This document shows, piece by piece, positions 12,784-64,000 of a stretch of DNA of 64,000 nucleotides. A program made the translations under genes and the position numbers. Below the pieces are notes generated by a model that saw nothing but the letters and a program-made list of their open reading frames with translations, searched no databases and had not been told where the DNA came from. Source of the stretch: Acidimicrobiia bacterium (GTDB lineage Bacteria > Actinomycetota > Acidimicrobiia > Spongiisociales > ZC4RG35); the NCBI GenBank assembly GCA_035462175.1, contig DATHUP010000049.1, positions 52,614 to 116,613 of the forward strand. The letters run 5' to 3'. Numbering within the stretch: the first letter of the stretch is position 1; every line of letters begins with the position of its first letter.

Positions 12784-12784
12784 G

Positions 12785-15611: not shown

Positions 15612-15615
15612 TCGT

Positions 15616-22842: not shown

Positions 22843-22845
22843 GCA

Positions 22846-24320: not shown

Positions 24321-24340
24321 TGATGCTTCGCATCATCAGC

Positions 24341-24413: not shown

Positions 24414-24426
24414 TGGAGGTCACAAC

Positions 24427-26310: not shown

Positions 26311-26321
26311 GCAAGCTCATC

Positions 26322-26392
26322 CGCCGTTCTACGTTTTACGTGTTACGTCCTACGTACGACGTAGGGCGTAGGACGTATGACGGGGCGACCGG
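26322..26392. repeat. intercistronic heptamer-periodic hairpin, TACG-type variant
   Basis: ttctacg ttttacg tgttacg tcctacg / tacgacg tagggcg taggacg tatgacg; arms complementary (tcctacg vs cgtagga); between nuoL and nuoM. Confidence 0.7.
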
Positions 26393-26401
26393 AGGTCGCC
26401 C

Positions 26402-27931
26402 ATGTTGACCGCCCTCGTGCTGGTGCCTGCGGTCAGCGCCTTGATCGTGGCGTTGGTGCCTTCGCGGAGGAGGGAGGTCCATCTCCCGCTCGGGATCGCC
26501 CTGTCGGTGATGCCGCTCGCCCTCGCCGGCTATCTGTTCTGGGTATTCGAGCCGGCGGCAGGGTTCCAATATGTCGACCGGGTGGCCTGGTACGAGCCAT
26601 GGGGGATCGACTGGTTCCTCGGTGTCGACGGGATCTCCCTGCCGATGGTCGCCCTTACCACCCTCTTCGTTCCCATCGCCCTCGCCGCCTCGACCTCGAT
26701 CACCACCCGGACCAAGGAGTTCGTGGTCTTCACGTTGTTGCTCGAGGCCGGTCTGATTGGGGCCTTCCTCGCCCTCGACCTGTTCCTCTTCTTCGTCTTC
26801 TTCGAGGCGATGCTGATCCCGATGTACTTCATCATCGGAATCTGGGGCTCGGAGCGTCGGGTCTACGCCGCGGTCAAGTTCTTCATCTACACCGCTTTCG
26901 GCTCCGCCCTGCTGCTGGCCGCGATCATCGGTCTCGCCCTGATCCATGCCACCGAGGAAGGTTTTGCCTCCTTCGCCCTGACCGACCTGGTCGGGCTCGA
27001 CCTCTCCGTCGGCGCGGAACGATGGCTCTTCGCCGCCTTCGCCATCGCCTTTGCCATCAAGGTCCCGCTCTTCCCGTTCCACACCTGGCTCCCCGATGCC
27101 CATGTCGAGGCGCCGACGGCCGGCTCGGTCCTGCTCGCCGCAGTCCTCCTGAAGCTGGGCACCTACGGCCTGCTTCGCTTCAACCTGGCGCTCTTCCCGG
27201 AGACCTCGGTCGACGCGGTTCCGATCATGGCCGCCCTCGCGGTGATCGGGATCATCTACGGGGCGGTGGTCGCCATCGTCCAGCCTGATCTCAAGAAGCT
27301 CGTCGCCTACTCCTCGGTCAGCCATCTCGGCTTCATCGTGCTCGGCACCTTCGCCCTGACCTCGGGGGGTTTACAGGGCGCGGTGATCCAGAACGTGAAC
27401 CACGGGCTGACCACCGGTGCCCTCTTCCTCCTGGTCGGGATGATCTACGACCGGAGACACACCAAGAAGATCGCCGACTTCGGAGGTCTGCAGAAGACAG
27501 TCCCCATGCTCGCCGGGTTCTTCCTCTTCATGGCTTTCGCCTCGATCGGGCTCCCCGGCCTGAATGGGTTCGTCGGGGAGTTCCTGGTCCTCATCGGGAG
27601 CTTCCCCACCCTCCCCGTCCCGACCGTCCTCGCCGCCTCCGGGGTGGTGCTCGCCGCCATCTACCTGCTCTGGGCCTACGAACGGGTCTTCACCGGTGTC
27701 CCCGACAACGAGGAGAACAAGGTCCTGTCCGACCTCTCACCCCGTGAGATCGCGGTCCTCGCACCCTTGGCCGTGTTGGTGCTCGTGATCGGGCTCTATC
27801 CCAACCTGCTCCTCGACAAGATCACGCCTTCGACCGAGGCCGTGCTCGACCACATCGAGGCGCAGACCGACTTCGTCGTTCCCGAACCGGGACGGATCGA
27901 CGAGGTCGTGATGATCGGAGGCGAAGGATGA
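26402..27931 (+). CDS. nuoM: NADH-quinone oxidoreductase subunit M
   Basis: ND4-like antiporter subunit. Confidence 0.9.
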   Translation: MLTALVLVPAVSALIVALVPSRRREVHLPLGIALSVMPLALAGYLFWVFEPAAGFQYVDRVAWYEPWGIDWFLGVDGISLPMVALTTLFVPIALAASTSITTRTKEFVVFTLLLEAGLIGAFLALDLFLFFVFFEAMLIPMYFIIGIWGSERRVYAAVKFFIYTAFGSALLLAAIIGLALIHATEEGFASFALTDLVGLDLSVGAERWLFAAFAIAFAIKVPLFPFHTWLPDAHVEAPTAGSVLLAAVLLKLGTYGLLRFNLALFPETSVDAVPIMAALAVIGIIYGAVVAIVQPDLKKLVAYSSVSHLGFIVLGTFALTSGGLQGAVIQNVNHGLTTGALFLLVGMIYDRRHTKKIADFGGLQKTVPMLAGFFLFMAFASIGLPGLNGFVGEFLVLIGSFPTLPVPTVLAASGVVLAAIYLLWAYERVFTGVPDNEENKVLSDLSPREIAVLAPLAVLVLVIGLYPNLLLDKITPSTEAVLDHIEAQTDFVVPEPGRIDEVVMIGGEG

Positions 27932-29388
27932 TCGCCACGCCCGAGATCTCCTGGATCGCCATCGCCCCCGACCTGGCCCTCGCCGTCGGTGCTGCCCTGG
28001 TGCTGCTGGTCGACGTGCAATGGAAGCCGCGGCCCGTGGTGCTGGGATGGGTTGTCGGGGCCACCCTGGCCGTGGTGGCCGGTTTGACCATCCTGCAATG
28101 GCTGATCGGGACCGACGCCGTGGCCGCGGGGGACAGCGCGAGCCTGATCGCGTTCTCCGGGATGATCACGATGGACGGGTTCACCGTCTTCGCCCGTCTC
28201 GCATTGATCGCTGCGACGGCACTGGGTGTGACCGGCGGCTGGCGCTTCGTGGTCGGGATGGGCCGTCGCGGGGCGGAGGCCCTGGCCCTCGTCTTGCTGG
28301 CGACGGCCGGCTTCTCACTGATGGTCGCCTCCAACAACCTGGTCATGATGTTCCTCGGTCTGGAAGTCGGCTCGATCTCCCTCTACGTGCTCGCCGGGCT
28401 TGCCCGGGAGAGAAGGGAATCTGAGGAGGCGGCGATCAAGTACTTCCTGCTCGGGTCCTTTGCCTCCGCCCTGTTCGTGTACGGGGTGGCCCTGATCTAC
28501 GCCGGCACCCGGCAATTCCAGATCCTCGAGATCCGGCACTACCTGGACAACTTCATCGTGACCAACCCGGCGGTTATCTACGTCGGGCTCGGGCTCGTGA
28601 TCGCCGGTCTCGGGTTCAAGGTGTCGGCCGCCCCCTTCCACGCCTGGGCCCCCGACGTCTATCAGGGGGCGCCGGCCGGACTGGTCGGATACCTGGCCGC
28701 GGTGGCGAAGATCGCCGGATTCGCCGCCATAGCCCGGGTCCTGCTCACCGCTCTCCCCGAACTGGACGCCGCCTGGATGCCGGTTGTGGCCGGGATCTCG
28801 GTCGTGTCCATGACTCTCGGCTCGTTGCTCGCCCTCGTCCAAGGGGACGTCCGCCGGCTACTCGCCTACTCCGGAGTGGCCCACGCCGGGTTCATCATGA
28901 CCGGCGTCGTCGGCGGGTCGACGGAGGCGATCCTGTTCTATCTGGCCATCTACTCCATCCAGCTGCTCGGCGCCTTCGCCGTGGTGTCGGTGGTGAGCGG
29001 CCCCGACGGGGCCGGGTCGGCTCTGGATCGGTATCGCGGGCTGGGTCGGCGAAGCCCTCTCCTCGCCTCGTCCTTCGCCGTCCTCCTCCTGGGGATGGGG
29101 GGTCTGCCCCTGACCTCGGGGTTCGTGGCCAAGTTCGGCGTGTTCACCGAGGCGTGGGCCCGGGGATACGAATGGCTGGTCATTGTGGCCGTGGTGGCAT
29201 CGGTGGTCGCCTTTGCCTTCTATATCCGGGTCATCGTCGTGATGTACATGGACGACGCCGGGGACGAGGAGTCGTTGAGGGTCGGGCCCGAGGGTTGGGT
29301 GTTGGCGGTGGCTGTCGGAACGACGATTCTCTGGGGCATCTTCCCGTCGTCGCTTCTCGATCTGGCAGCTGATGCGCTTCCGCTATAG
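27928..29388 (+). CDS. nuoN: NADH-quinone oxidoreductase subunit N
   Basis: ND2-like antiporter subunit; ATGA overlap with nuoM. Confidence 0.9.
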   Translation: MIATPEISWIAIAPDLALAVGAALVLLVDVQWKPRPVVLGWVVGATLAVVAGLTILQWLIGTDAVAAGDSASLIAFSGMITMDGFTVFARLALIAATALGVTGGWRFVVGMGRRGAEALALVLLATAGFSLMVASNNLVMMFLGLEVGSISLYVLAGLARERRESEEAAIKYFLLGSFASALFVYGVALIYAGTRQFQILEIRHYLDNFIVTNPAVIYVGLGLVIAGLGFKVSAAPFHAWAPDVYQGAPAGLVGYLAAVAKIAGFAAIARVLLTALPELDAAWMPVVAGISVVSMTLGSLLALVQGDVRRLLAYSGVAHAGFIMTGVVGGSTEAILFYLAIYSIQLLGAFAVVSVVSGPDGAGSALDRYRGLGRRSPLLASSFAVLLLGMGGLPLTSGFVAKFGVFTEAWARGYEWLVIVAVVASVVAFAFYIRVIVVMYMDDAGDEESLRVGPEGWVLAVAVGTTILWGIFPSSLLDLAADALPL

Positions 29389-53750: not shown

Positions 53751-54116
53751 ATGACCCCATACTTCGAGAGTTACCTGACAGTCGGCGCATTCGCCGTTCT
53801 CGGGGCAGTCCTGGTGATGATGATGCTCGGCCTGGCCACGGTGCTGCGACCGACCAACCCCACGGCCACCAAGATGCTCACCTACGAGTGCGGGGTTGAC
53901 CCTGTCGGATCGGGGTGGAGCCAGAGCTACGTTCGCTACTACGTCTACGGGCTGCTATTTGTCATCTTCGACGTGGAGGCGGTCTTCATCTTTCCCTGGG
54001 CGATAGTGCTCGACCAGTTGGGCACGTTTGGCCTGGTGGAGATGTTCGTGTTCATCGCCATCCTCCTCCTTGGGCTGGTCTACGCGGTCCGCAAAGGAGT
54101 CCTGCGGTGGGAGTAG
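53751..54116 (+). CDS. nuoA: Nuo-like complex subunit A (cluster 2)
   Basis: YECGVDP / [12 protein letters not shown] motifs; 121 aa. Confidence 0.85.
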
Positions 54117-54604
54117 TCCAGAAGTTCGGGGCCCCGAAGCCGGTGACTTGGCTTCTCAACTGGTCCCGGAAGTACTCCCTCTGGCTGTTCCAGTTCGGTC
54201 TGGCCTGCTGTGCCATCGAGCTGATGGCAGCGTCTGGCCCCCGGTTCGACTTCATGCGCTTCGGGATCATCCCTCTTCCCGCCTCGCCCCGTCAGGCCGA
54301 TCTGATGGTCGTCGCCGGGACGGTCACCGACAAGATGGCTCCGGCCATTCGTCGTCTCTACGACCAGATGCCCGATCCCAAGTACGTCATCTCGATGGGG
54401 TCGTGCGCCAACTGCGGCGGCCCATATTGGGATTCCTACTCGGTGACCAAGGGAGTCGACCAGGTGATCCCGGTGGACGTGTACGTCCCGGGCTGTCCGC
54501 CTCGGCCCGAGGCATTGATGGACGGGATCGTGCTCCTCCAGAAGAAGATCCAGGGCGAAGACATCAAAGAGAAATGGAACCGGCGTGACCTCGAGCCCGT
54601 CTGA
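54107..54604 (+). CDS. nuoB: Nuo-like complex subunit B (cluster 2)
   Basis: [12 protein letters not shown]...GSCANCGG...PGCPPRP; GTG start with AAAGGAG RBS. Confidence 0.85.
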
Positions 54605-55229
54605 GACCGAGACGGCCGCCGTCCACCCGCTCCAGGAGTACGCCGATCGGGTTGCTGCCGCGGTAGGGGGCGATGGGACGGTGACCTTCGACACGGTCAA
54701 GATCAGGGTTCCCCTCGAGCGATGGGTCGATGCCCTGACCACGGCACGCGACGAGCTCGATCTCGTCTTCTTCTCTTGGCTCTCTGCAGTCGACTGGTCC
54801 TCCGAGGTCGAGGTGGGCGACCCTTTTCCCGAGCCGGTCGAAGATCGTCTCGAGCTCCTCGCCACCGTGGCCGATGTCAGCGAGGGGCGACGGGTGATCT
54901 TCTCCACCGATCTGGACAAGGAAACGCCTTCTGCACCCACCCTGATCGACGTGTACGCCGGGGCCAACTGGCACGAACGGGAAGCCCACGAGATGTTCGG
55001 GATCCATTTCGATGGTCATCCCAACCTGATCCACCTCTACTTGCCCGACCAGTTCCTGGGCAACCCGCTGCGAAAGAGCTATCCCCTTCTCAGCCGTGAG
55101 GTCAAGCCCTGGCCCGGCACGGTCGACGTCGAGGCGATGCCGGGCAGTGACGAAGGAACAGAGGACGAAGGAGCAGAGGGAGACGGGGCCGAGGCGGACG
55201 GGCCCTCCGAGGAGAACCCGGAGGCATGA
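54585..55229 (+). CDS. nuoC: Nuo-like complex subunit C (cluster 2), acidic C-terminal tail
   Basis: [18 protein letters not shown] motif. Confidence 0.85.
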
Positions 55230-55230
55230 C

Positions 55231-56421
55231 ATGGTGCTAGACCAGGATCTGGTCCGCCACCTCTCCGAGTCTTCGGTGTCGGTGGAGCTCGACACCGAGG
55301 ACATGACCCTCAACATCGGGCCCCAGCACCCGTCGACTCACGGCGTTCTCCGACTCAAGGCACGGGTGGACGGCGAACGCGCCTTCGACGTGCAACCGGT
55401 CATCGGCTACATGCATCGCGGCTACGAGAAGCTGTCGGAGGCGAGGACCTACCCCCAGATCACCACCCTCGTCAACCGCATCGACTGGGTGTCGGGTTAC
55501 GCCAACGAGATCCCCTTCATCGTCGCCGCCGAGAAGCTGCTCGGCGTCGAGGTGCCGGAGCGAGCCCAATACATCCGGCTCATCCTCACCGAAATGGCCC
55601 GGATCTCCTCCCACCTGGTCTTCATGGCGTCCTACCCGCTGGAGCTGGGGGCGGCCACCCCGCTCTTCTTCGCCCTGAGGGAGCGGGAGCGTGTGCTCGA
55701 CCTGCTCGAGGGTGTGACCGGTGGCAGGTTCCACCCGAACTTCAACCGGATCGGCGGGGTCAAGCCGGCGTACGGGTCGGGCTCGGCGACCCGGAAGGTG
55801 ATCCAAGACCTCCCTGCCGGGTTCCTCGCCGAGACCAGGGATGCGATGGACAAGGTGGTGGAGGCGGTGGACGAGCTGAATCAGCTGGTTGCCGACAACG
55901 AGATCATCGTGGCCCGGACCAAGGGGGTCGGGGTCCTGCCCCCCGAGGTGGCTGCCGCATACGGGGTCTCCGGGCCCAACCTCCGTGCCTCCGGAGTCGG
56001 GTTCGATCTGCGCAAGGTGGAGGACTACCTCCCCTACCACCTGTTCGACTTCGAGATCCCGACCGGGGAGAACGGCGACTGCTGGGATCGATGGCATGTC
56101 CGCCTCCTCGAGATTCGCCAGTCGGTGCGCATCGTCCAGCAGGCGATCGACGGCATCCCCTCCGGCCCGCTCCAGGCCAAGGTGCCCAAGGTGATCAAGG
56201 TGCCTCAGGGAGAGACCTATGTCCGGGCGGAGAACCCGAAGGGGGAGATGGGCTACTACCTGGTCTCCAACGGCAACCAGGGCCCCTACCGGCTGAAGAT
56301 CCGCTCCGCCAGCTTCTCCAACATCTCGATCCTTCCCTGGATCCTGGAGGGTGTCCTGGTCCCCGACATCATCGCCATCATGGGAAGTCTGGACTTCGTG
56401 TTGGGGGACGTGGACCGATGA
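55231..56421 (+). CDS. nuoD: Nuo-like complex subunit D (cluster 2)
   Basis: NIGPQHPSTHGVLRL...RSASFSN motifs; no N-terminal acidic extension, unlike cluster 1 NuoD. Confidence 0.9.
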   Translation: MVLDQDLVRHLSESSVSVELDTEDMTLNIGPQHPSTHGVLRLKARVDGERAFDVQPVIGYMHRGYEKLSEARTYPQITTLVNRIDWVSGYANEIPFIVAAEKLLGVEVPERAQYIRLILTEMARISSHLVFMASYPLELGAATPLFFALRERERVLDLLEGVTGGRFHPNFNRIGGVKPAYGSGSATRKVIQDLPAGFLAETRDAMDKVVEAVDELNQLVADNEIIVARTKGVGVLPPEVAAAYGVSGPNLRASGVGFDLRKVEDYLPYHLFDFEIPTGENGDCWDRWHVRLLEIRQSVRIVQQAIDGIPSGPLQAKVPKVIKVPQGETYVRAENPKGEMGYYLVSNGNQGPYRLKIRSASFSNISILPWILEGVLVPDIIAIMGSLDFVLGDVDR

Positions 56422-56439
56422 GTGCTCGCTTCGCTGATT

Positions 56440-56518
56440 TGGCTACGAGCTACGAGCCACGAGCAACGGGCCAGAGCGCGATTCTGGCTCGTCGCTCGTT
56501 GCCCGTTGCTCATCGCGT
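56440..56518. repeat. intercistronic heptamer-periodic hairpin repeat, copy R2
   Basis: gctacgagctacgagccacgagcaacgg / GCCAGAGCGCGattCTGGC apex / gctcgtcgctcgttgcccgttgctcatcgc; between nuoD2 and nuoH2. Confidence 0.8.
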
Positions 56519-56533
56519 CAGGAAGGACACCCA

Positions 56534-57538
56534 GTGTCCTTCCTGACCGAGCTGTTCTCCAACTTCTGGGTCTCTCTTGCCGGGAAGCTGCTCATCGTCG
56601 CTCTCATGATCCCGCTCGTGGGCATGGTCATCGGGTTCGCCGAGATGAAGCTCTCGGCCAAGATGCAGGCACGGGTCGGCCCCTACTTCGCCGGGGGACG
56701 CTGGGGCTGGGCACAGCTCATCGCCGACGGGGTCAAGTTCTTCCAGAAAGAGGATCTGATCCCCACCGAGGCGGATCGCCCGGTGTTCAAGCTGGCGCCT
56801 GTGCTGGTGCTGGTGAGCACGGTCGCCCTTCTGGTGGTGATCCCCTTTGGCCCGGACCTGATCTTCCGCGATCTCTCGGTCGGCATCTTCTACGCCCTCG
56901 CTATCTCCTCGCTGAGCACTGTCGGGATCCTGATGGCCGGCTGGTCGTCGGGCAACAAGTACTCGCTGATGGGTGGGCTCAGGGCCGCCGGACAGCTGAT
57001 CGCCTACGAGCTGCCCCTGGTGCTGGCCGTCGTGGGCGCGGTCATGCTGGCCGGGACCATGAGCATGTCCGGGATCGTCGAGGCCCAGATCGAGGCCGGG
57101 TACCCCTTTGTGGTACTCCAGTTCCTCGGCTTCGGGATCTTCCTGATCGCCGCCCTCGCCGAGCTGAGTCGGATCCCCTTCGACATGCCCATCGCCGAGT
57201 CGGAGCTGGTGATGGGATATCTGACCGAGTACTCGGGATTCCGTTTCCTGTTCTTCTTCCTGGCCGAGTTCGCCAATATGTTCACCCTGTCGGCGATCGC
57301 CGTGACCCTTTTCCTCGGCGGCTACTGGCTTCCCGGGATCCCCGAGGACGTCCTCGCCTATGCCGGTCCGGTGATCCTCATCGCCAAGACCTTCCTCCTC
57401 GTCTTTGTCATGATCTGGTTCCGCTGGACCTTCCCCCGGTTCCGAGAAGACCAGTTGCAGAGCATGGCCTGGAAGTGGTTGATCCCGATCGCCCTGGCCA
57501 ACATCCTCCTCACCGGAGCCTTCAAGGTGTACCTATGA
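56534..57538 (+). CDS. nuoH: Nuo-like complex subunit H (cluster 2)
   Basis: ND1-like; GTG start embedded in the palindrome gtcaggaaggacac-cca-gtgtccttcctgac. Confidence 0.9.
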   Translation: MSFLTELFSNFWVSLAGKLLIVALMIPLVGMVIGFAEMKLSAKMQARVGPYFAGGRWGWAQLIADGVKFFQKEDLIPTEADRPVFKLAPVLVLVSTVALLVVIPFGPDLIFRDLSVGIFYALAISSLSTVGILMAGWSSGNKYSLMGGLRAAGQLIAYELPLVLAVVGAVMLAGTMSMSGIVEAQIEAGYPFVVLQFLGFGIFLIAALAELSRIPFDMPIAESELVMGYLTEYSGFRFLFFFLAEFANMFTLSAIAVTLFLGGYWLPGIPEDVLAYAGPVILIAKTFLLVFVMIWFRWTFPRFREDQLQSMAWKWLIPIALANILLTGAFKVYL

Positions 57539-58035
57539 CCAGCGCCACCGACCGACGTGTGCTTCCCGGCGTGGGGATGCTCAAGGGCCTCTGGGTGACC
57601 ATCTACACCATGTTCCGCACCATCTTCCGTCCCGGGAAGTACCTCGCCACGATCAACTACCCGGTGGTCAAGGAGACCCCGGTGCCCCGGGCGCGGGGCG
57701 TCATCGCCCTGGACCAGGAGGCGTGCACGGTGTGCATGCTCTGTGCCCGCCAGTGCCCCGACTGGTGCATCTACATCGAAGGGCACAAAGAGGAGAAGGA
57801 GCCGGACAAGCCCGGGGGCAGGGTCAAGGTGCGGAACACGCTCGACCGTTTCGACATCGACTACGCGCTCTGCATGTACTGCGGGATCTGTGTCGAGGTG
57901 TGCCCGTTCGACGCCCTGTTCTGGTCACCGGAGTACGAGTACTCCGAGACGCAGATGGGCGACATGTTGCACGACATGGACCGTCTCCAGGACTGGCTCG
58001 CCACCGTCCCCGACAATCCGGAGCTGGAGAAATGA
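57535..58035 (+). CDS. nuoI: Nuo-like complex subunit I (cluster 2)
   Basis: Two 4Fe-4S motifs (CTVCMLCARQCP, CMYCGICVEVCP). Confidence 0.85.
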   Translation: MTSATDRRVLPGVGMLKGLWVTIYTMFRTIFRPGKYLATINYPVVKETPVPRARGVIALDQEACTVCMLCARQCPDWCIYIEGHKEEKEPDKPGGRVKVRNTLDRFDIDYALCMYCGICVEVCPFDALFWSPEYEYSETQMGDMLHDMDRLQDWLATVPDNPELEK

Positions 58036-58039
58036 GAGC

Positions 58040-58113
58040 TCGGCTTCGCCTCGCCGCTGCGAGCTACGAGCTTCGAGCTACGAGTTGCTCTGGCTCGTTG
58101 CTCGTTGCTCGTT
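58040..58113. repeat. intercistronic heptamer-periodic hairpin repeat, copy R3
   Basis: gagctacgagcttcgagctacgag / ttgctctg / gctcgttgctcgttgctcgttgctcatggc; between nuoI2 and nuoJ2. Confidence 0.8.
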
Positions 58114-58129
58114 GCTCATGGCGCCCGGA

Positions 58130-58690
58130 GGGTGGATCGTGAGTTTCGGCGACTGGGTGTCCGAGCCGGTCAACTGGGTGTTTCTCGTCGTCGGGGCCCT
58201 GGTGCTGGTTTCCGCGTTCCGGGTGGTCACCGCTAAGAACGTGGTGCACGCCGCCCTGTTCCTGGTTGCCGCTCTGGCCGGGACCGCAGTGCTCTTCCTC
58301 ATGCTCTCCGCCGAGTTCGTTGCCTGGGTCCTGGTGTTGGTCTACATCGGCGCGGTGATCGTCCTGTTCCTGTTCGGGATAATGATCACCCGGGCCCCCA
58401 CCGGTCGTGACGTGGGCCTCGACGTGGAGAAGCGACTGTGGGCCGGGATCCTGTCCCTAGCCACCTTCGTGCTCCTCTCCTGGGCCTCGATCGACGCTTT
58501 CGGATCGACCCGGATCGAAGAGGTGGGAGAGGCCACCTCGACCGAGGTCCTCGGGCTGGCCCTGTTGGGTCGATTCGTCATCCCGTTCGAGGTGGTCTCC
58601 TTTGTTCTCCTCGCGGCCCTGATCGGGGGGATAACCATCGCCCGCCGCGATCTCACTCCCCTCGAGGAAGAGCAGAGGAGCTCGGTATGA
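58130..58690 (+). CDS. nuoJ: Nuo-like complex subunit J (cluster 2)
   Basis: ND6-like; GTG start 7 nt after GGAGGG (the alternative ATG at 58109 lies inside the repeat and has no RBS). Confidence 0.75.
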   Translation, partial: GWIVSFGDWVSEPVNWVFLVVGALVLVSAFRVVTAKNVVHAALFLVAALAGTAVLFLMLSAEFVAWVLVLVYIGAVIVLFLFGIMITRAPTGRDVGLDVEKRLWAGILSLATFVLLSWASIDAFGSTRIEEVGEATSTEVLGLALLGRFVIPFEVVSFVLLAALIGGITIARRDLTPLEEEQRSSV

Positions 58691-58770
58691 GAGCCATGAG
58701 CCACGAGCTACGAGCGACGAGCCGGAGCGCGTTGCTGGCTCATTGCCCGTCGCTCGTTGCACGTCGCGCA
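58691..58770. repeat. intercistronic heptamer-periodic hairpin repeat, copy R4
   Basis: gagccatgagccacgagctacgagcgacgagc / GCCGGAGCGCGttgCTGGC apex / tcattgcccgtcgctcgttgcacgtcgc; between nuoJ2 and nuoK2. Confidence 0.8.
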
Positions 58771-58790
58771 TCGTTCGCCGGAGGTGAACG

Positions 58791-59096
58791 ATGCTTCTGA
58801 ATCAGTTTCTGATTCTCGCGGCGGCAATGTTCTCGCTTGGGATCTACGGGCTGTTGGTCCGGCGCAACATCGTGCTCATCCTGCTCTCGGTCGAGTTGAT
58901 GCTGGCCGCGGTGAACATCAACCTCATCGCCTTCGAAGCGGTGCTGCGCAGCCCTGATGCGATCGGCCAGGTGTTCGCCATATTCGTGATCACCGTTGCC
59001 GCCGCCGAGGTGGGCATCGGTCTCGCCATCGTCCTGATGATCTTCCGCAACCGGAAGTCGGCCAACGTCGACGAGCTCCACCTGATGAGATGGTGA
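58791..59096 (+). CDS. nuoK: Nuo-like complex subunit K (cluster 2)
   Basis: ND4L-like, 101 aa; start codon inside the hairpin gcatcgttc-gccggaggt-gaacgatgc. Confidence 0.85.
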   Translation: MLLNQFLILAAAMFSLGIYGLLVRRNIVLILLSVELMLAAVNINLIAFEAVLRSPDAIGQVFAIFVITVAAAEVGIGLAIVLMIFRNRKSANVDELHLMRW

Positions 59097-59109
59097 GAGC
59101 GTCGCTCCG

Positions 59110-59195
59110 CTCCGCAGCTACGAGCTATGAGCTTCGAGCTCTGAGCCAGAGCGCGTCTTCGGCTCGTTGCTCGTTGCTCGTTGCCCGTTGCCCGG
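59110..59195. repeat. intercistronic heptamer-periodic hairpin repeat, copy R5
   Basis: gcagctacgagctatgagcttcgagctctgagcc / AGAGCGCG apex / ggctcgttgctcgttgctcgttgcccgttgccc; between nuoK2 and nuoL2. Confidence 0.8.
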
Positions 59196-59205
59196 AGGTC
59201 ACGAA

Positions 59206-61233
59206 GTGACCTCCGTCCTTGCCACCGAGGCGGAGCAGGCGGTCGAAGCCGGCATCACCGGCGGCTTCTTCGTGGACACAGCCGGAATCATGCTGGTACT
59301 GCCCTTCGTCGCCTTCCTCCTCATCATCGCCTTCGGGAAGCGGATGAGGAACCAGGGGGCGGAGCTGGCCATCGGGGCTCTCACCGTCAACACGGTGTGG
59401 GCCACCGTCCTCTTCGTGATGAACATGACCGACGGGGTGCTCGCCACCACCACCTTCGAGATCGGCCGGATCGGGAGCAATCTCGTCTTCGAGCTGGGGT
59501 GGGTGGTCGACGGGCTCTCCATCATGATGTACTTCCTGGTCAGCCTGGTGGGCCTGATCGTGTTCATCTACGCGGTGGGCTACATGCACGGCGACGTCAG
59601 GGTCCCCTGGTTCTTCGCCGCCTTCTCCCTGTTCGCCGGTTCGATGCTGGTCCTGGTGGGGGCCCCCAACTTGATCCAGCTCATCATCGGCTGGGAAGGG
59701 GTCGGTCTCGCCTCTTACCTGCTCATTGCCTTCTACTGGGAGGACATGGCCAATGTGAACGCGGGCAACAAGGCTTTCATGGTCAACCGCACCGCCGACA
59801 TCGGGCTCATGCTCGGGGCGATCATCGTGGCGGTGGCGGTGGGCACCTTCGACTTCGCCGCCATCAACGAGGCCGCCGTCGCCGGGCTCGGCGCGCTCTC
59901 CACTGTCGCCGTAGTGGGTGGGGCACTTCTCTTCGTCGGGGCGATGGGCAAGAGTGCCCAGTTCCCCTTCCATATCTGGCTTCCCGATGCCATGGCCGGC
60001 CCGACCCCGGTCTCTGCTCTGATGCACGCAGCGACGATGGTCACCGCCGGGGTGTACCTCATGGGCCGGATGTTCCCTCTCTTCCAGAACATGGCCACCG
60101 AGCTCAGGCCCTGGATGGTGGTCATCGGCGCCGTCACGCTGTTCGCCCTGGGCTTGCTCGCCCTGGTCGCCGACGACATCAAGAAGGTGCTGGCCTATTC
60201 GACCGTGTCCCAGCTCGGCTACATGATGACCGCGGTCGCCGCCGGCGGCTACACCGCCGGGCTGTTCCACCTGTTCACCCACGCCTTCTTCAAGGCCTTG
60301 CTCTTCCTGGGTGCGGGATCGGTGATACATGCCGTCCACTCCAACAACATGAGCGATATGGGCGGTCTGAGGAAGTTCATGCCCCGCACCTACTGGACCT
60401 TTGTGATCGGGGCCTTGTCCCTGGCCGGGATCTTTCCCCTGGCCGGGTTCTGGTCCAAGGACGAGATACTGGCCACCCTCGGCTTCGAGGGGTACACCGC
60501 GATCATGTGGATCGCGGTCGCCGGCGCATTCGTCACCGCCTTCTACATGACCCGTGCCGTCGCTCTCACCTTCCATGGGGAATACAAGGGGCACGGGCAT
60601 CCCCATGAGTCACCGAGAGTCATGACCGGCCCACTGATCGCCTTGGCCATCCCCTCGGTCCTCTTCGGGCTGTTGAACATTCCCGGTGTCGGGTTCCCGG
60701 TCATCGGCAACTTCACCGAGTGGCTGGCGGTGCGAGCGGTCCCGATGGGGGACCATCACGCCGAGGGGATCGACTTCCTCCTCGCCGGAGCCGGGCTGCT
60801 CGCCGCCCTGGGCGGCATCGCCCTGGGCTGGCTGGTCTGGGGCAAGGACCGGGATACCCAGGCGGAGCGGGACCGCTTCCAGATTCCTGCTCTCTACCCG
60901 CTGCTCCGCAACAAGTATTTCGTGGACGACCTCGCCGACGGTGTCGTGGCGGGGACCATGGGGCCGCTCGCCCGTTTCACCAATTGGGTCAACGACTACA
61001 TCATCGACGGGATCGTCAACGGGGTCGGGTTGCTCACCAGAGGTTTGGGCTCGTTCGTCTACGGGGTGGTTGACCAGAAGGGTGTCGATGGTGTGGTCCA
61101 CGGTTTGTCGGCGGGAGCCGACGGCGCCGGGTCGGCTCTGCGTAGGTGGCAGACCGGCCGGGTGCAGCAGTATGCGGCATCGGTGGTCGGGGGCGCCCTG
61201 ATCCTGATAGTCCTGTTCGTGTTCGTGAGATAG
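59206..61233 (+). CDS. nuoL: Nuo-like complex subunit L (cluster 2)
   Basis: ND5-like; GTG start inside the perfect palindrome ggaggtcac-gaa-gtgacctcc (the ORF-track start at 59167 reads through the repeat). Confidence 0.85.
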   Translation: MTSVLATEAEQAVEAGITGGFFVDTAGIMLVLPFVAFLLIIAFGKRMRNQGAELAIGALTVNTVWATVLFVMNMTDGVLATTTFEIGRIGSNLVFELGWVVDGLSIMMYFLVSLVGLIVFIYAVGYMHGDVRVPWFFAAFSLFAGSMLVLVGAPNLIQLIIGWEGVGLASYLLIAFYWEDMANVNAGNKAFMVNRTADIGLMLGAIIVAVAVGTFDFAAINEAAVAGLGALSTVAVVGGALLFVGAMGKSAQFPFHIWLPDAMAGPTPVSALMHAATMVTAGVYLMGRMFPLFQNMATELRPWMVVIGAVTLFALGLLALVADDIKKVLAYSTVSQLGYMMTAVAAGGYTAGLFHLFTHAFFKALLFLGAGSVIHAVHSNNMSDMGGLRKFMPRTYWTFVIGALSLAGIFPLAGFWSKDEILATLGFEGYTAIMWIAVAGAFVTAFYMTRAVALTFHGEYKGHGHPHESPRVMTGPLIALAIPSVLFGLLNIPGVGFPVIGNFTEWLAVRAVPMGDHHAEGIDFLLAGAGLLAALGGIALGWLVWGKDRDTQAERDRFQIPALYPLLRNKYFVDDLADGVVAGTMGPLARFTNWVNDYIIDGIVNGVGLLTRGLGSFVYGVVDQKGVDGVVHGLSAGADGAGSALRRWQTGRVQQYAASVVGGALILIVLFVFVR

Positions 61234-61248
61234 GAGAGGCAGAGAGCG

Positions 61249-62871
61249 ATGGAATTGTTCGAAACGTGGGCCCTGACCCTGATCGTCTTCCTGCCTCTGG
61301 CCGGTGCCCTCCTCCTCGGGTTGGTCCCCAAGGAGAACGAGGGGGCGCTGAAGGCGTTGTCCCTCCTCGTCACCGGCGCCGCCTTCATCCTCTCCGTGGT
61401 CGCCATCGGTCTGTTCGACTTCTCCGGCGCCCCCTACAACACCTATCAGTTCGAGGTCAACGAGAGCTGGATCGGGGCGATCAACGCCAACTACCACATT
61501 GGCATCGACGGGATCAGCCTTCCCATGCTCGTCCTGTCCACCTTCGTCATGGTGCTCTCGGTGATCTACAGCTGGAATCACTGGGAGGAGCCGAGGAACC
61601 CCAAGGTCTTCCTCATCCTCATGCTGATCCTGGCCACCGGGCTCAACGGCACCTTCGTCGCCCTCGACCTGGTCCTGTTCTTCATCTTCTTCGAGGTGGT
61701 CCTGGTCCCGATGTACTTCATGATCGGGATCTGGGGCGACCGGTCGCCACGCAGGCTGCCCGGGTTCGGCAGGGAGGTGCAGACCCGTCTCTACGCCGCC
61801 ATCAAGTTCTTCCTGTTCACCCTGTTCGGGTCGGCGTTCATGCTCCTCGGCTTCCTGGCCCTCTACTTCGCCTCGGGCGACGCCAGCGAGACCGGATTGC
61901 GCACCTTCGACATCGTCGAGCTCACCGTCCTCGGATCGGAAGGTGCTTTCACCGGCACCTTTGCCTTCCTCGTGTTCGGGGCGATGTTCCTCGGGTTTGC
62001 GGTCAAGGTGCCGATGTGGCCTCTCCACACCTGGCTGCCCGACGCCCACACCGCCGCCCCCACGGTCGGCTCGGTCTTGCTGGCCGCCATCATGCTGAAA
62101 CTCGGCTCATACGGGTTCATCCGCATCTCGCTGCCGATTCTCCCCGATGAGGCGCGCAACTGGGCTCCTGCCATCGCCATCCTCGCCGTGATCGGGATCA
62201 TCTACGGCTCGCTGGCCTGTCTCGCCCAGACCGACATGAAACGGCTCATCGCCTTCTCCTCGGTCGGTCACATGGGATTCGTGATGCTGGGGATCGCGAC
62301 CCTGACCGACGTCGGGATCAACGCGGCCGTCATCGGGATGGTGGCCCACGGTTTGATCACGGGTCTCCTCTTCTTCCTGGCCGGCTCGATGTCACATCGT
62401 TATCACACGAGGGAGATGTCCCGCCTCGGGGGCAACATGAGGTTGATGCCGGTGATGGGGGGCATCCTCGCCTTCACCGCGATGGCATCCCTCGGTCTGC
62501 CCGGCCTGGCCGGGTTCTGGGGCGAGTTCATGTCGCTGGTGGGCGCCTACAACCCCCTCGACGGGCTCTCCCTGGGTGTGTTCCGCACCTCTATGGTCCT
62601 CGGGGCGGTCGGGACCGTACTCACCGCCGGGTACATGCTCTACATGCTGCAGCAGGTCAACCTGGGTGAGCCGGGCGAAGAGTGGCAGGGTCGTGAGTTC
62701 CACGACGTGGACCGCTTCGAGATGACCGCCTGGGTCCCACTAATCGTCCTGATCGTGGTGGTCGGGTTCTACCCCAAGATCATCTTCAACGCCACCACCG
62801 ACAGCGTGGTGTCCCTGGTGGAGATGGTGTTCAAGCCGGAGACCGTCGCCTCGCTGGGCTCGGGAGGATGA
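61249..62871 (+). CDS. nuoM: Nuo-like complex subunit M (cluster 2)
   Basis: ND4-like antiporter subunit, 540 aa. Confidence 0.9.
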   Translation: MELFETWALTLIVFLPLAGALLLGLVPKENEGALKALSLLVTGAAFILSVVAIGLFDFSGAPYNTYQFEVNESWIGAINANYHIGIDGISLPMLVLSTFVMVLSVIYSWNHWEEPRNPKVFLILMLILATGLNGTFVALDLVLFFIFFEVVLVPMYFMIGIWGDRSPRRLPGFGREVQTRLYAAIKFFLFTLFGSAFMLLGFLALYFASGDASETGLRTFDIVELTVLGSEGAFTGTFAFLVFGAMFLGFAVKVPMWPLHTWLPDAHTAAPTVGSVLLAAIMLKLGSYGFIRISLPILPDEARNWAPAIAILAVIGIIYGSLACLAQTDMKRLIAFSSVGHMGFVMLGIATLTDVGINAAVIGMVAHGLITGLLFFLAGSMSHRYHTREMSRLGGNMRLMPVMGGILAFTAMASLGLPGLAGFWGEFMSLVGAYNPLDGLSLGVFRTSMVLGAVGTVLTAGYMLYMLQQVNLGEPGEEWQGREFHDVDRFEMTAWVPLIVLIVVVGFYPKIIFNATTDSVVSLVEMVFKPETVASLGSGG

Positions 62872-62877
62872 TGGCTG

Positions 62878-62958
62878 GCAAGCGAGCTACGAGCTACGAG
62901 CTTCGAGCTACGAGTCGGAACGGTCTGGCCCGTTGCCCATTGCTCGTTGCTCGTCGCC
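62878..62958. repeat. intercistronic heptamer-periodic hairpin repeat, copy R6
   Basis: gcgagctacgagctacgagcttcgagctacgag / tcggaacggtct / ggcccgttgcccattgctcgttgctcgtcgcctcg; between nuoM2 and nuoN2. Confidence 0.8.
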
Positions 62959-63001
62959 TCGAGGGTTGCCGACGGGCAAAGTCGGCCGGCAAGGAAAAAC
63001 A

Positions 63002-64000
63002 GTGACCTTCGAGATCGACTATCTGGCCCTGGCGCCCGAATTCGTGGTGGTGGGGACGATGCTCGGAGTGTTCACTCTCGACCTCGTCCTTCCCCGCGCC
63101 CGGAAGTACTGGACCGCCACCATGGCCGTGGCCGGCACCACCCTCGCCGCCGTCCCCCTGGTCCTCCTCGCATCCGAGGGGACGACCAGGTCGATGTTCG
63201 ACGGTTCGTACGTTGTGGACGAGTTCGCAGTCATCCTCAAAGGCGTCTTCCTCGTCTCGGCATACATCGTCCTTCTCATGTCCCACCATTACATCGAGTC
63301 GGATCGCTACTACCAGGGCGAGTACTACTTCCTCCTCCTGGCGTCGGTGCTCGGCTCCCTGGTCATGGCATCTGCTCGAGACCTGATCATCCTGTTCATC
63401 GGTCTCGAGCTCACCACCGGGCCCCTCTACATGCTGGCAGGATGGAGAAAGGGCGACGCCAAGTCCAACGAGGCCTCGATGAAGTACTTCATCCTCGGGG
63501 TCCTATCGACGGCGATTCTGCTCTACGGGATGTCGATGCTGTACGGATTGACGGGGGAGGTCACCTTCGCCGGTCTCGCCGAGGCGACCACGGGCATGGC
63601 CGACGAGCCCGCCATCATCGTGGCCGTGTTCGGGCTCATCGTCGGGTTCGGGTTCAAGATCTCGGCGGTGCCCTTCCACTTCTGGGCGCCGGACACCTAT
63701 GAAGGGGCGCCCACGCCGGTGACCGCCTATCTCTCGGTCAACTCGAAGGCAGCCGGATTCGTCGCCTTCCTCCTCATCATGTACCAGGCCCTTCCCGGGC
63801 TCTCCGAGATCTGGGCTCCGGCGCTGTGGCTGCTGGCTGTCTTGTCCATGACGGTGGGCAACCTGGCCGCCCTGCGTCAGAGCAACATCGTCCGTCTACT
63901 TGCCTACTCGTCGATCGCACAGGCAGGTTTCATGCTGGTCCCCTTCGCCGCGGCGGCCGTGGCGGGAGCCGACCTGGCCGAGGCGTTCTCGGCGACCGTG
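63002..64000 (+). CDS. nuoN: Nuo-like complex subunit N (cluster 2), 3' end outside the window
   Basis: ND2-like (GLELTTGPLYML, KISAVPFHFWAPDTYEGAPTPV); GTG start after a short hairpin gccgac-gggcaaa-gtcggc; the ORF-track entry 62947..63702 is a wrong-frame read through the repeat. Confidence 0.8.
   Translation, partial: MTFEIDYLALAPEFVVVGTMLGVFTLDLVLPRARKYWTATMAVAGTTLAAVPLVLLASEGTTRSMFDGSYVVDEFAVILKGVFLVSAYIVLLMSHHYIESDRYYQGEYYFLLLASVLGSLVMASARDLIILFIGLELTTGPLYMLAGWRKGDAKSNEASMKYFILGVLSTAILLYGMSMLYGLTGEVTFAGLAEATTGMADEPAIIVAVFGLIVGFGFKISAVPFHFWAPDTYEGAPTPVTAYLSVNSKAAGFVAFLLIMYQALPGLSEIWAPALWLLAVLSMTVGNLAALRQSNIVRLLAYSSIAQAGFMLVPFAAAAVAGADLAEAFSATV

What the first reader, a model, noticed from the sequence alone, without database searches (positions are those of the whole stretch)
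53751..64000. Second, 11-gene Nuo-like operon lacking nuoE, nuoF and nuoG
Cluster 2 encodes A, B, C, D, H, I, J, K, L, M and N in canonical order, but has no NADH-binding N-module between D and H. 11-subunit complex-I relatives such as Fpo/Fqo F420H2 dehydrogenases and cyanobacterial or ferredoxin-dependent NDH-1 use a different electron-input module. The same window encodes at least two F420-dependent enzymes (5800-6816; 45392-46351, G6PD-family), so the organism uses F420. An F420H2- or ferredoxin-oxidising complex is a reasonable hypothesis. The subunits are clearly divergent paralogs of cluster 1: NuoD2 lacks the acidic N-extension, NuoI2 lacks the C-extension, and NuoC2 has an acidic tail.
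Basis: partly seen in the sequence, partly recalled or inferred. Interest (0 to 1): 0.6.

Follow-up and report, generated by a model that had tools for sequence, protein, structure and literature searches.

The report
Second complex I operon without NADH module
This Acidimicrobiia genome carries, next to a normal 14-gene respiratory complex I, a second intact 11-gene copy that lacks the NADH-binding part; this arrangement and the F420 idea are already published for this bacterial class, and its electron donor is still unknown (ferredoxin fits best).

Summary
Window 53751-64000 (+) encodes nuoA2-B2-C2-D2-H2-I2-J2-K2-L2-M2-N2, with nuoN2 cut by the window end. Only 112 nt separate D2 and H2. A full nuoA-N set lies at 11364-29388.

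The organism is an Acidimicrobiia bacterium. All 80 related genome loci keep the same gene order, and none has nuoE, F or G within 10 kb.

The arrangement is already described for actinobacteria: Streptomyces nuo2, and Ca. Actinomarinales, where the F420 hypothesis was also proposed. The operon is therefore a new member of a known kind.

The F420 idea fails the tests I could run. No FpoF or FpoO lies nearby. Every Fpo model scores far below its cut-off. Cluster 2 is no closer to Fpo than cluster 1 is.

Cluster 2 is an old, separate lineage, 30-57% identical to cluster 1. Its FeS ligands and proton-pump residues are intact, and NuoI2 is strongly divergent.

In NuoD2 the quinone-site Tyr87 is replaced by Trp. 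The Arg that NDUFAF7 methylates in mitochondria is present in NuoD2 but not NuoD1. Both features are invariant in all 120 listed Acidimicrobiia homologues and in all 120 listed homologues of the Nocardioidaceae-type protein.

Best reading: a proton-pumping ferredoxin-type:menaquinone oxidoreductase. This is inferred, not shown.

The parts
53751..54116 (+). nuoA2 (121 aa)
   Evidence: PF00507 scores 123 bits. NCBIfam NuoA scores 133 bits.
54107..54604 (+). nuoB2 (165 aa). N2-cluster ligands CCAIE, GSC and GCPP are present. The gene overlaps nuoA2 by 10 nt.
   Evidence: NF005012 scores 240 bits against a cut-off of 116. Sequence. It is 99% identical to the L001 and L002 orthologues.
54585..55229 (+). 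nuoC2 (214 aa), with the conserved C-terminal motif [17 protein letters not shown] followed by an acidic tail
   Evidence: PF00329 scores 109 bits. Orthologue C-termini.
55231..56421 (+). nuoD2 (396 aa). His37 corresponds to Thermus H38, Arg63 to Thermus T64 and human NDUFS2 R85, and Trp86 stands in place of Thermus Y87. There is a 13-aa insertion after RIGGVK.
   Evidence: PF00346 scores 282 bits. Alignment to Nqo4. Invariance of the residues.
56441..56522 (+). intercistronic hairpin built of heptamers (D2|H2)
   Evidence: folding energy -44.7 kcal/mol. nhmmer E-value 1e-23.
56534..57538 (+). nuoH2 (334 aa)
   Evidence: PF00146 scores 355 bits. NF004741 scores 326.7 against a cut-off of 305. 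The best solved relatives are NdhA of photosynthetic NDH-1.
57535..58035 (+). nuoI2 (166 aa). Both CxxCxxCxxxCP motifs are present. It is the most divergent subunit.
   Evidence: Conservation within the clade.
58053..58128 (+). intercistronic hairpin (I2|J2)
58139..58690 (+). nuoJ2 (183 aa)
   Evidence: PF00499 scores 118.5 bits.
58690..58774 (+). intercistronic hairpin (J2|K2)
58791..59096 (+). nuoK2 (101 aa). Both membrane Glu residues are present (SVELML and AAAEVG).
   Evidence: PF00420 scores 95.6 bits. Sequence.
59114..59198 (+). intercistronic hairpin (K2|L2)
59206..61233 (+). nuoL2 (675 aa)
   Evidence: NF005141 scores 607.8 against a cut-off of 556.
61249..62871 (+). nuoM2 (540 aa)
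   Evidence: TIGR01972 scores 553 bits against a cut-off of 264.
62885..62963 (+). intercistronic hairpin (M2|N2)
63002..64000 (+). nuoN2, first 332 codons; cut by the window end
   Evidence: PF00361 scores 179.6 bits. Orthologues are 494-506 aa.
11364..14134 (+). context: cluster 1, nuoA1-B1-C1-D1
17226..29388 (+). context: cluster 1, nuoE1-F1-G1-H1-I1-J1-K1-L1-M1-N1. This is the only N-module in the window.

Best explanation
[quoted passage not shown] It has the Q-module (NuoB2, C2, D2, I2, carrying clusters N2, N6a and N6b) and the full proton-pumping membrane arm (A2, H2, J2, K2, L2, M2, N2). It has no NADH-oxidising NuoEFG module of its own. The most likely mechanism has three steps. A soluble low-potential one-electron carrier docks on the exposed, strongly remodelled NuoI2/NuoC2/NuoD2 surface. 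The best candidate carrier is ferredoxin reduced by 2-oxoacid:ferredoxin oxidoreductases of the TCA cycle. Electrons then pass N6a, N6b and N2 to menaquinone, which binds in a modified pocket holding His37 and Trp86 instead of His and Tyr. The reaction drives proton pumping. What is shown: gene content, intact cofactor ligands and pump residues, deep divergence from cluster 1, and class-wide conservation. What is inferred: the identity of the donor, the acceptor and the direction of the reaction.
For: Anatomy: eleven genes, with overlapping or tightly spaced reading frames, and no E, F or G. FeS ligands: NuoB2 has CC...C...CP and NuoI2 has 2 x CxxCxxCxxxCP. NuoD2 has no NiFe cysteine pairs. 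NuoK2 and NuoM2 keep their charged pump residues. Selection: the same order holds in 80 Acidimicrobiia loci, 54 of them with all 11 genes. The D2-H2 gap is at most 407 nt and there are no E, F or G hits. Orthologue identity reaches 99% for B2. The operon is kept even in the roughly 1-Mb Ca. Actinomarina genomes. Separate lineage: paralogue identity to cluster 1 is 30-57%. D1 and H1 score best against PDB entry 8e9g (470 and 320 bits). D2 scores only 257 bits with that entry but 364 with Thermus Nqo4 and 341 with cyanobacterial NdhH. H2 scores best with NdhA, at 248 and 231 bits. In a neighbour-joining tree the D2 clade lies apart from D1. Input surface: NuoI2 fails every NuoI cut-off (86 bits against 163) yet is nearly invariant within the clade. 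NuoC2 has a conserved extended C-terminus, and in Thermus the NuoC C-terminal loop contacts NuoG. Context for ferredoxin: the Acidimicrobiia order UBA5794 lacks 2-oxoglutarate dehydrogenase and uses KorAB, so each TCA turn yields reduced ferredoxin (PMC12008989). Ferredoxin is the donor of NDH-1 and the proposed donor of other Nuo11 enzymes.
Against: No ferredoxin gene, ferredoxin-docking subunit (NdhS-like) or ferredoxin-reducing enzyme lies in the window or among the conserved neighbours. Whether this particular genome has KorAB is unknown. The acidic NuoC2 tail would not attract an acidic ferredoxin. Trp in place of the proton-donating Tyr87 raises doubt about ordinary quinone reduction: mutants at this Tyr keep activity only with short-chain quinones. 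Cluster 1 and cluster 2 always co-occur in the described genomes, which is also what sharing of NuoEFG would predict. No biochemical data exist for any actinobacterial nuo2 enzyme.
Confidence: 0.45

Rival explanations
1. An NADH-dependent isoenzyme. The single NuoE1-F1-G1 module from cluster 1 docks in trans on either Q-module, giving two NADH:menaquinone oxidoreductases with different membrane and Q parts.
For: Only one nuoEFG set is seen, and the two clusters lie 24 kb apart in the window. They are also neighbours in Ca. Actinomarina. [quoted passage not shown] In the window nuoE1-N1 is separated from nuoA1-D1 by two opposite-strand genes.
Against: The subunits that would have to bind NuoG are the ones most changed. 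NuoI2 is 34% identical to NuoI1 and fails all NuoI cut-offs. NuoC2 is 34% identical and has a different, extended C-terminus. NuoD2 lacks the D1 N-extension and NuoI2 lacks the I1 C-extension. Cluster 2 belongs to a lineage separate from the actinobacterial 14-subunit enzyme. A redundant 10-kb NADH enzyme would be unexpected in extremely streamlined genomes; this last point is inference.
Confidence: 0.2
2. An F420H2:menaquinone oxidoreductase that works like archaeal Fpo or Fqo. An F420H2-oxidising subunit encoded elsewhere in the genome feeds NuoI2.
For: The window encodes two F420-dependent LLM oxidoreductases. Acidimicrobiia synthesise F420, and this role was proposed for the same operon in Ca. 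Actinomarinales (PMC7771536). In Methanosarcina fpoF is encoded away from the fpo operon; this point rests on my own knowledge.
Against: No FpoF- or FpoO-like gene lies in the operon, in the window's annotated genes, or among the conserved neighbours of 80 loci. Fpo models score far below their cut-offs: FpoD 346 against 600, FpoH 264.5 against 475, FpoL 366 against 1050, FpoI 45 against 180. These scores are no better than for cluster 1, where FpoD scores 336, FpoH 278 and FpoI 61. FpoD is reported to keep Tyr87 but lack His38 and Asp139, whereas NuoD2 shows the reverse. Moparthi and Hagerhall found FpoF only in Euryarchaeota. A 2021 F420 review lists Fpo and Fqo only in archaea and gives Ddn as the F420H2-to-menaquinone route in mycobacteria. 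The published argument of 'up to 35% identity to M. mazei Fpo' is not specific.
Confidence: 0.1
3. An enzyme that does not work as an ordinary quinone reductase. Because the catalytic Tyr is replaced by Trp, it may run mainly in reverse, using the proton-motive force to drive menaquinol oxidation and reduce ferredoxin. Alternatively it may pass electrons to a non-quinone partner.
For: Tyr87 to Trp is invariant in the 57 locus orthologues, the 120 listed Acidimicrobiia homologues and the 120 listed homologues of the Nocardioidaceae-type protein. Trp at this site also occurs in C/D-fused subunits from Methanofastidiosia and Methanonatronarchaeales. Tyr87 mutants lose activity with long-chain quinones.
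Against: His37, the whole beta1-beta2 loop, Glu138 (at the Asp139 position), Asp at the 401 position and the N2 ligands are all kept. NuoH2 and NuoA2, which form the quinone tunnel, are well conserved. No candidate alternative acceptor is encoded nearby.
Confidence: 0.1

Closest known systems
Truncated nuo cluster of Ca. Actinomarinales (Acidimicrobiia): Lopez-Perez et al. 2020, PMC7771536; Bulzu et al. 2021 preprint, 10.1101/2021.02.01.429150
   Same: It has the same 11 genes in the same order and lacks nuoEFG. It sits beside a full 14-gene nuo cluster in the same genome. Actinomarina loci are direct orthologues (L052, L053, L056, L057 and L059, M2 67-68% identical). The F420 proposal and the NDUFAF7 neighbour are already published.
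   Different: The window comes from a high-GC (65%) lineage. The two clusters are 24 kb apart, with sugar-uptake, MoaA, topoisomerase IB and other genes between them. Among the genes scanned between the clusters no heliorhodopsin was found, and no complete Fe(III) ABC transporter operon like that described for Actinomarina was identified. In the nearest relatives the NDUFAF7-like gene is not directly downstream. The intercistronic hairpins are specific to this genome.
Streptomyces nuo2 genes (nuoA2, B2, D2, H2-N2) and the Nocardioidaceae orphan nuoD2
   Same: It is a second, EFG-less nuo set beside nuoA-N in Actinomycetota (PMC8388888). The Nocardioidaceae-type NuoD2 is the nearest outgroup (50% identity). 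It shares His, Arg63 and Trp86 and is linked to a PF02636 gene.
   Different: In Streptomyces and Nocardioidaceae nuoD2 is detached from the other nuo2 genes, and Streptomyces has no C2 and a degenerate J2. Here all eleven genes form one operon. The 13-aa NuoD2 insertion is present in every Acidimicrobiia orthologue examined and absent from the one Nocardioidaceae-type sequence inspected, P0125.
11-subunit 'ancestral' complex I (Nuo11) of Bacillota, Chlorobi, Chloroflexi and others (Moparthi and Hagerhall 2011; Desulfitobacterium hafniense, Willemin et al. 2024)
   Same: It has the same subunit set, no designated electron-input partner, conserved Q-module ligands, and a proposed ferredoxin donor and menaquinone acceptor.
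   Different: Those organisms usually have Nuo11 as their only complex I, and many are anaerobes. Here it coexists with Nuo14 in an aerobe-type respiratory neighbourhood with Rieske protein, cytochrome c and Rex. Most of the nearest NuoD representatives carry Tyr at the Tyr87 position.
Cyanobacterial and plastid NDH-1 (ferredoxin:plastoquinone oxidoreductase)
   Same: It lacks NuoEFG and uses ferredoxin as donor. NdhA is the best solved match of NuoH2, and NdhH is the second-best match of NuoD2.
   Different: NDH-1 models are far below cut-off: NdhH 365 against 583, NdhI 52.5 against 302, Ndh5 477 against 963. No NdhL-V/S accessory genes lie in or near the operon. NdhH keeps Tyr87. B2 and M2 are closer to mitochondrial and proteobacterial subunits.
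Archaeal Fpo/Fqo F420H2 dehydrogenases
   Same: The core A-D and H-N subunits are shared, and NuoEFG is absent.
   Different: There is no FpoF/FqoF and no FpoO. All Fpo models are below cut-off and no closer than for cluster 1. The pattern at the His38/Tyr87/Asp139 positions is the opposite.

Membership tests
[quoted passage not shown] | One cluster encoding NuoA, B, C, D, H, I, J, K, L, M and N | tested here: met
   NuoN2 is truncated by the window end but is full length in orthologues.
[quoted passage not shown] | No nuoE, nuoF or nuoG in or next to the cluster | tested here: met
   The D2-H2 gap is 112 nt. None lies in the 24 kb upstream back to cluster 1 among the genes scanned. Downstream is not visible in the window, but no E, F or G hits occur in 80 related loci within 10 kb either side.
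[quoted passage not shown] | Cys ligands for N2 in NuoB and for two 4Fe-4S clusters in NuoI; no NiFe cysteine pairs in NuoD | tested here: met
   NuoB2 has CCAIE, GSC and GCPP. NuoI2 has CTVCMLCARQCP and CMYCGICVEVCP. NuoD2 has GPQHPSTHG and SLDFVLGDVDR, neither containing Cys.
Canonical 14-subunit NADH:quinone oxidoreductase | Own NuoE, NuoF and NuoG N-module (FMN and NADH site) | tested here: not met
   It is absent from cluster 2. The only set in the window belongs to cluster 1.
Canonical 14-subunit NADH:quinone oxidoreductase | Quinone-ligating His38 and Tyr87 of NuoD (Thermus numbering) | tested here: not met
   His is present, but Tyr is replaced by Trp86. This is invariant in orthologues. 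NuoD1 has both residues.
Canonical 14-subunit NADH:quinone oxidoreductase | Subunits reach the curated equivalog scores | tested here: inconclusive
   B2, D2 (NF004739), H2, K2, L2 and M2 pass a NuoX model. A2, C2, I2, J2 and D2 (TIGR01962, 425.9 against 459.35) do not.
Fpo/Fqo F420H2 dehydrogenase | F420H2-oxidising subunit FpoF/FqoF (FrhB family) | tested here: inconclusive
   None lies in the operon, among the window genes scanned, or among conserved neighbours in 80 loci. The rest of the genome could not be searched.
Fpo/Fqo F420H2 dehydrogenase | Core subunits match the Fpo-specific NCBIfam models | tested here: not met
   FpoC 59 against 220, FpoD 346 against 600, FpoH 264.5 against 475, FpoI 45 against 180, FpoJ 36 against 110, FpoK 100 against 145, FpoL 366 against 1050. 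Cluster 1 scores are similar.
Fpo/Fqo F420H2 dehydrogenase | FpoD site pattern: Tyr87 present, His38 and Asp139 absent (as reported in PMC4758237) | tested here: not met
   NuoD2 has His, Trp at the Tyr87 position and Glu at the Asp139 position.
Photosynthetic NDH-1 | Ndh-specific core models, and accessory subunits including ferredoxin-binding NdhS | tested here: not met
   NdhH 365 against 583, NdhI 52.5 against 302, NdhJ 60 against 175, Ndh5 477 against 963. No extra small genes lie in the operon, whose gaps hold only hairpins. A genome-wide NdhS search was not possible.
Actinobacterial nuo2 lineage (Streptomyces, Nocardioidaceae, Actinomarinales) | Coexists with a full nuoA-N cluster in an Actinomycetota genome | tested here: met
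   Cluster 1 lies at 11364-29388. Taxon assignment.
Actinobacterial nuo2 lineage (Streptomyces, Nocardioidaceae, Actinomarinales) | NuoD2 signature of His37, Arg63 and Trp86 (my own definition) | tested here: met
   GPQHPSTHG, GYMHRGYEK and NRIDW are present in the window. They are invariant in the 120 listed Acidimicrobiia homologues and the 120 listed homologues of the Nocardioidaceae-type protein.
Actinobacterial nuo2 lineage (Streptomyces, Nocardioidaceae, Actinomarinales) | Linked NDUFAF7-family (PF02636) methyltransferase gene | not testable with these tools
   The window ends inside nuoN2. The gene is present downstream in 33 of 71 related loci and next to the orphan nuoD2 in L081. It is not within 8 kb in the nearest relatives.

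The most novel reading that the evidence does not exclude
The actinobacterial nuo2 enzymes (Acidimicrobiia operon, Nocardioidaceae and Streptomyces D2) may form a functionally distinct class of complex I-like enzyme. In this class the catalytic quinone-site Tyr is replaced by Trp in every sequence examined. The N2-proximal Arg, absent from the co-resident NuoD1, would be methylated by a dedicated bacterial NDUFAF7 homologue. Such an enzyme would couple oxidation of KOR/POR-derived ferredoxin to the menaquinone pool with altered quinone chemistry or directionality. It would also give a bacterial model for NDUFAF7 function. The operon-NDUFAF7 linkage is already noted in a preprint. I did not find the Trp/Arg signature, its restriction to D2, or its conservation across two classes in the papers searched.
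Probability: 0.3. Interest if true: 0.6.

Novelty: new member of a known kind. Interest (0 to 1): 0.3.

Why it matters
The electron donor of N-module-less complex I is a long-standing open question (Moparthi and Hagerhall 2011). Acidimicrobiia are abundant in oceans and soils, and even the most streamlined of them keep this 10-kb operon, so it must matter for their energy budget. This window adds no new kind of system. The comparison does sharpen the question in four ways. The F420 label used in the literature has no specific support. The likely input surface (NuoI2, NuoC2) is remodelled but tightly conserved. The quinone site carries an invariant Tyr-to-Trp change. The NDUFAF7 target Arg exists only in NuoD2. 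These are concrete, testable handles for biochemistry in culturable actinobacteria.

Tried and rejected
- An exact look-up of NuoM2 in the contig index found nothing. The source genome itself is not in the collections, and the nearest relative is 91% identical.
- The search for homologous proteins with NuoD2 returned only close Acidimicrobiia relatives, so it gave no broad phylogeny.
- The representative search has no names, and the listing of cluster members named only a few clusters. The neighbour-joining tree is therefore largely unlabelled, has no bootstrap support, and serves only to show that D2 is separate from D1.
- I looked for the heliorhodopsin reported between the two clusters in Actinomarina. 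The only candidate membrane protein (40238-40945, minus strand) has no Pfam hit.
- Rfam found nothing for the hairpins, only sub-threshold miRNA-like hits.
- A metagenome scan with a 25-nt heptamer-repeat probe returned unrelated heptamer microsatellites. None lay near nuo genes, and only one formed a hairpin. This scan was uninformative.
- A motif scan found no stand-alone ferredoxin gene in the window.
- One search failed because of a wrong reading frame.
- I considered a decaying pseudo-operon and rejected it. The ORFs are intact, third-position GC is 0.77-0.91 in the genes the composition filter listed, and orthologues are up to 99% identical.
- I could not test whether any genome has nuo2 without nuoEFG, or whether it has an FpoF, KorAB or NdhS homologue.

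Full report
**Observation.** The window has 65% GC. Six-frame translation, start-site inspection and HMM scans place eleven + strand genes between 53751 and the window end. In order they are nuoA2, B2, C2, D2, H2, I2, J2, K2, L2, M2 and N2. The pairs A2/B2, B2/C2 and H2/I2 overlap, and C2/D2 and L2/M2 are 1-15 nt apart. The gap between D2 and H2 is 112 nt, so no N-module gene can sit there. NuoN2 is cut after 332 codons; its orthologues are 494-506 aa.

- A complete cluster 1 exists. nuoA1-D1 lie at 11364-14134 and nuoE1-N1 at 17226-29388, with Pfam-confirmed NuoE, F and G.
- The genes at 5800-6816 (minus strand) and 45392-46351 (+) pass the NCBIfam cut-offs of two F420-dependent LLM families.
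- The N-terminal, C-terminal and tail differences between the paralogues are as described.

**Who it is and how conserved it is.** A genome-collection scan with NuoM2 returned 80 loci, almost all labelled Acidimicrobiia, including Ca. Actinomarina. Identity ranges from 91% down to 58%. In every locus the cluster-2 genes are colinear, and 54 loci hold all eleven genes. The D2-H2 gap never exceeds 407 nt. tblastn with the window's NuoE1, F1 and G1 finds nothing within 10 kb on either side.

In the closest relatives nuoN2 is followed by a convergent beta-lactamase-like hydrolase, a GNAT and a Nudix gene. The operon is under strong purifying selection. B2 is 99% identical to the nearest orthologues, and NuoI2 is almost invariant across the class.

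**It is already described.**
- Moparthi and Hagerhall (2011) list actinobacteria among the holders of 11-subunit complex I. They found FpoF only in Euryarchaeota and no designated partner protein.
- Streptomycetes are known to carry nuoA-N plus nuoA2...N2.
- Lopez-Perez et al. (2020) describe exactly this pair of clusters in Ca. Actinomarinales, note the loss of EFG in one, and propose F420 as its donor.
- A 2021 preprint describes the same 11-gene operon followed by NDUFAF7, htpX and other genes.

The finding is therefore a further member of a known, biochemically uncharacterised kind.

**Relationship to the known families.** Cluster 2 is not a recent copy of cluster 1. Paralogue identity is 30-57%.
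- Against solved structures, D1 and H1 score best with entry 8e9g (470 and 320 bits). To my knowledge this is mycobacterial complex I.
- D2 scores only 257 bits with 8e9g, but 364 with Thermus Nqo4 and 341 with cyanobacterial NdhH.
- H2 scores best with plastid and cyanobacterial NdhA (248 and 231 bits, against 206 for 8e9g).
- B2 and M2, however, score best with mitochondrial and proteobacterial subunits. The affinity to NDH-1 is therefore partial.

I built a neighbour-joining tree from 117 representatives at the 50% identity level plus D1 and D2. D2 groups with a Nocardioidaceae/Propionibacteriales protein set and lies apart from D1. The tree is unlabelled and has no bootstrap support. The second refuting condition, nesting inside canonical complex I, is thus not met.

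Membership in Fpo or NDH-1 fails on scores. Every Fpo and Ndh model is far below its cut-off. The Fpo scores of cluster 2 (FpoD 346, FpoH 264.5, FpoI 45) are about the same as those of cluster 1 (336, 278, 61).

**Functional residues.**
- NuoB2 keeps the N2 ligands.
- NuoI2 keeps both CxxCxxCxxxCP motifs.
- NuoK2 keeps both membrane glutamates.
- NuoM2 keeps the Glu/Lys/His motifs.
- NuoD2 has no hydrogenase cysteines.

The enzyme should therefore carry out electron transfer coupled to proton pumping.

Two features set NuoD2 apart. The first concerns the quinone site. The ungapped alignment to Thermus Nqo4 puts Trp86 ('NRIDW') at the position of Tyr87. Tyr87 and His38 hydrogen-bond the quinone head group. 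His37 is kept, Asp139 is Glu, and Asp401 is kept. Trp is found in all 57 full-length locus orthologues, in all 120 listed Acidimicrobiia homologues, and in all 120 listed homologues of the Nocardioidaceae-type protein. NuoD1 and most representatives have Tyr.

The second feature concerns a known methylation site. The residue aligned with Thermus Thr64 is Arg63 ('GYMHRGYEK') in NuoD2, but Thr in NuoD1. This position corresponds to human NDUFS2 Arg85, which NDUFAF7 dimethylates and which lies about 7 A from N2. A PF02636 (NDUFAF7-family) gene lies on the same strand 0.07-4 kb downstream of nuoN2 in 33 of 71 related loci. One also lies two genes from an orphan nuoD2 in a Nocardioidaceae contig. 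The methylase target is thus present only in the D2 paralogue.

The likely electron-entry surface is remodelled. NuoI2 is the most divergent subunit. NuoC2 has a conserved extended C-terminus plus an acidic tail. NuoD2 has a conserved 13-aa Lys/Arg-containing insertion.

**Mechanism.** What is shown is an N-module-less, intact, conserved complex I-like enzyme of a separate lineage. The donor is inferred.

*F420H2 (about 0.1).* Nothing specific supports it. No FpoF or FpoO lies nearby. There is no Fpo affinity, and the site pattern is the opposite of FpoD. Reviews place Fpo and Fqo only in archaea and name Ddn as the mycobacterial route from F420H2 to menaquinone.

*NuoEFG shared in trans (about 0.2).* This cannot be excluded, because the clusters co-occur and the idea has a precedent. 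However, the subunits that would bind NuoG are the most altered. A redundant NADH enzyme would also be odd in 1-Mb genomes.

*Ferredoxin or a similar carrier (about 0.45).* This fits best. It is the donor of NDH-1 and the favoured donor of other Nuo11 enzymes. At least one Acidimicrobiia order runs its TCA cycle with 2-oxoglutarate:ferredoxin oxidoreductase instead of the dehydrogenase. That creates a need to re-oxidise ferredoxin. No ferredoxin gene or docking subunit is linked to the operon, though.

*Atypical quinone chemistry or reverse operation (about 0.1).* The Trp substitution leaves room for this.

**Passing observations.** Five of the six larger gaps of cluster 2, and the K1|L1 gap of cluster 1, each hold one copy of an 80-nt hairpin. 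It is built from ACGAGCN heptamers and their complements, with folding energies of -40 to -47 kcal/mol. All copies share one orientation, and each ends just before the next gene's Shine-Dalgarno sequence. A profile search finds exactly these six copies in the 64 kb. They match no Rfam family. They are almost absent from the 80 relatives, so they are a recent, lineage-specific spread.

**Verdict.** The operon is a new member of a known kind and of modest interest. The residue-level signature of NuoD2 and its link to the methylase are the parts most worth following up.

Noticed in passing
window 56441-56522, 58053-58128, 58690-58774, 59114-59198, 62885-62963 and 24339-24418: There are six copies of an 80-nt perfect-type hairpin made of ACGAGCN heptamers and their complements, with folding energies of -40 to -47 kcal/mol. 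All are on the coding strand, all lie in intercistronic gaps of the two nuo operons, and each ends just before the next gene's ribosome-binding site. They match no Rfam family and are nearly absent from 80 related loci. They could be REP-like elements or mRNA-processing or stabilising elements.
   Followed up: partly
L029:15955-17259; also 32 other loci; L081:8596-9396: An NDUFAF7/MidA-family methyltransferase (PF02636) lies downstream of nuoN2 in 33 of 71 Acidimicrobiia loci and next to an orphan nuoD2 in a Nocardioidaceae contig. Its mitochondrial target Arg (NDUFS2 R85) is present in NuoD2 (R63) but is Thr in NuoD1. The operon linkage was noted in a 2021 preprint. I did not find the D2-only target residue described in the papers searched.
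   Followed up: partly
window 55486-55488 (NuoD2 Trp86) and 55417-55419 (Arg63): The quinone-ligating Tyr87 (Thermus numbering) is Trp in NuoD2. It is invariant in the 120 listed Acidimicrobiia homologues and in the 120 listed homologues of the Nocardioidaceae-type protein. Trp at this site also occurs in C/D-fused subunits named Methanofastidiosia and Methanonatronarchaeales (P0137, P0172).
   Followed up: partly
window 14190-17079 (- strand): Cluster 1 is split. Two opposite-strand genes sit between nuoD1 and nuoE1: a HAAS-domain protein (14190-15176) and an amidohydrolase-family protein (15616-17079). The 14 genes therefore cannot be one transcript.
   Followed up: no
window 24-5102: This is a respiratory neighbourhood. 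It holds a Rieske-domain protein, a cytochrome c-domain protein, a Rex-type redox-sensing repressor (3173-3790, minus strand) and a geranylgeranyl-reductase-like flavoprotein (3864-5102).
   Followed up: no
window 7891-8886 (-) and 38604-40031 (-): There are signs of mobile elements: an integrase-core plus HTH_38 transposase (IS30-like), and a DUF222 plus HNH endonuclease protein.
   Followed up: no
window 43545-44738 (+) and 47067-48731 (+): A bacterial type IB topoisomerase and a PolX-like protein (HHH_8 plus PHP domains) lie between the two nuo clusters.
   Followed up: no
window 40238-40945 (-): A 235-aa multi-pass membrane protein with very high third-position GC (0.90) has no Pfam match. 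It is not the heliorhodopsin that occupies the inter-cluster position in Ca. Actinomarina.
   Followed up: partly
L001:11620-11883: In the nearest relative the M2|N2 gap is about 260 nt. It holds a different repeated element, which translates as repeated 'GLFALRC...RDPY.GPRVAEG'. The intercistronic gaps of this operon therefore seem to be recurrent landing sites for repeats.
   Followed up: no
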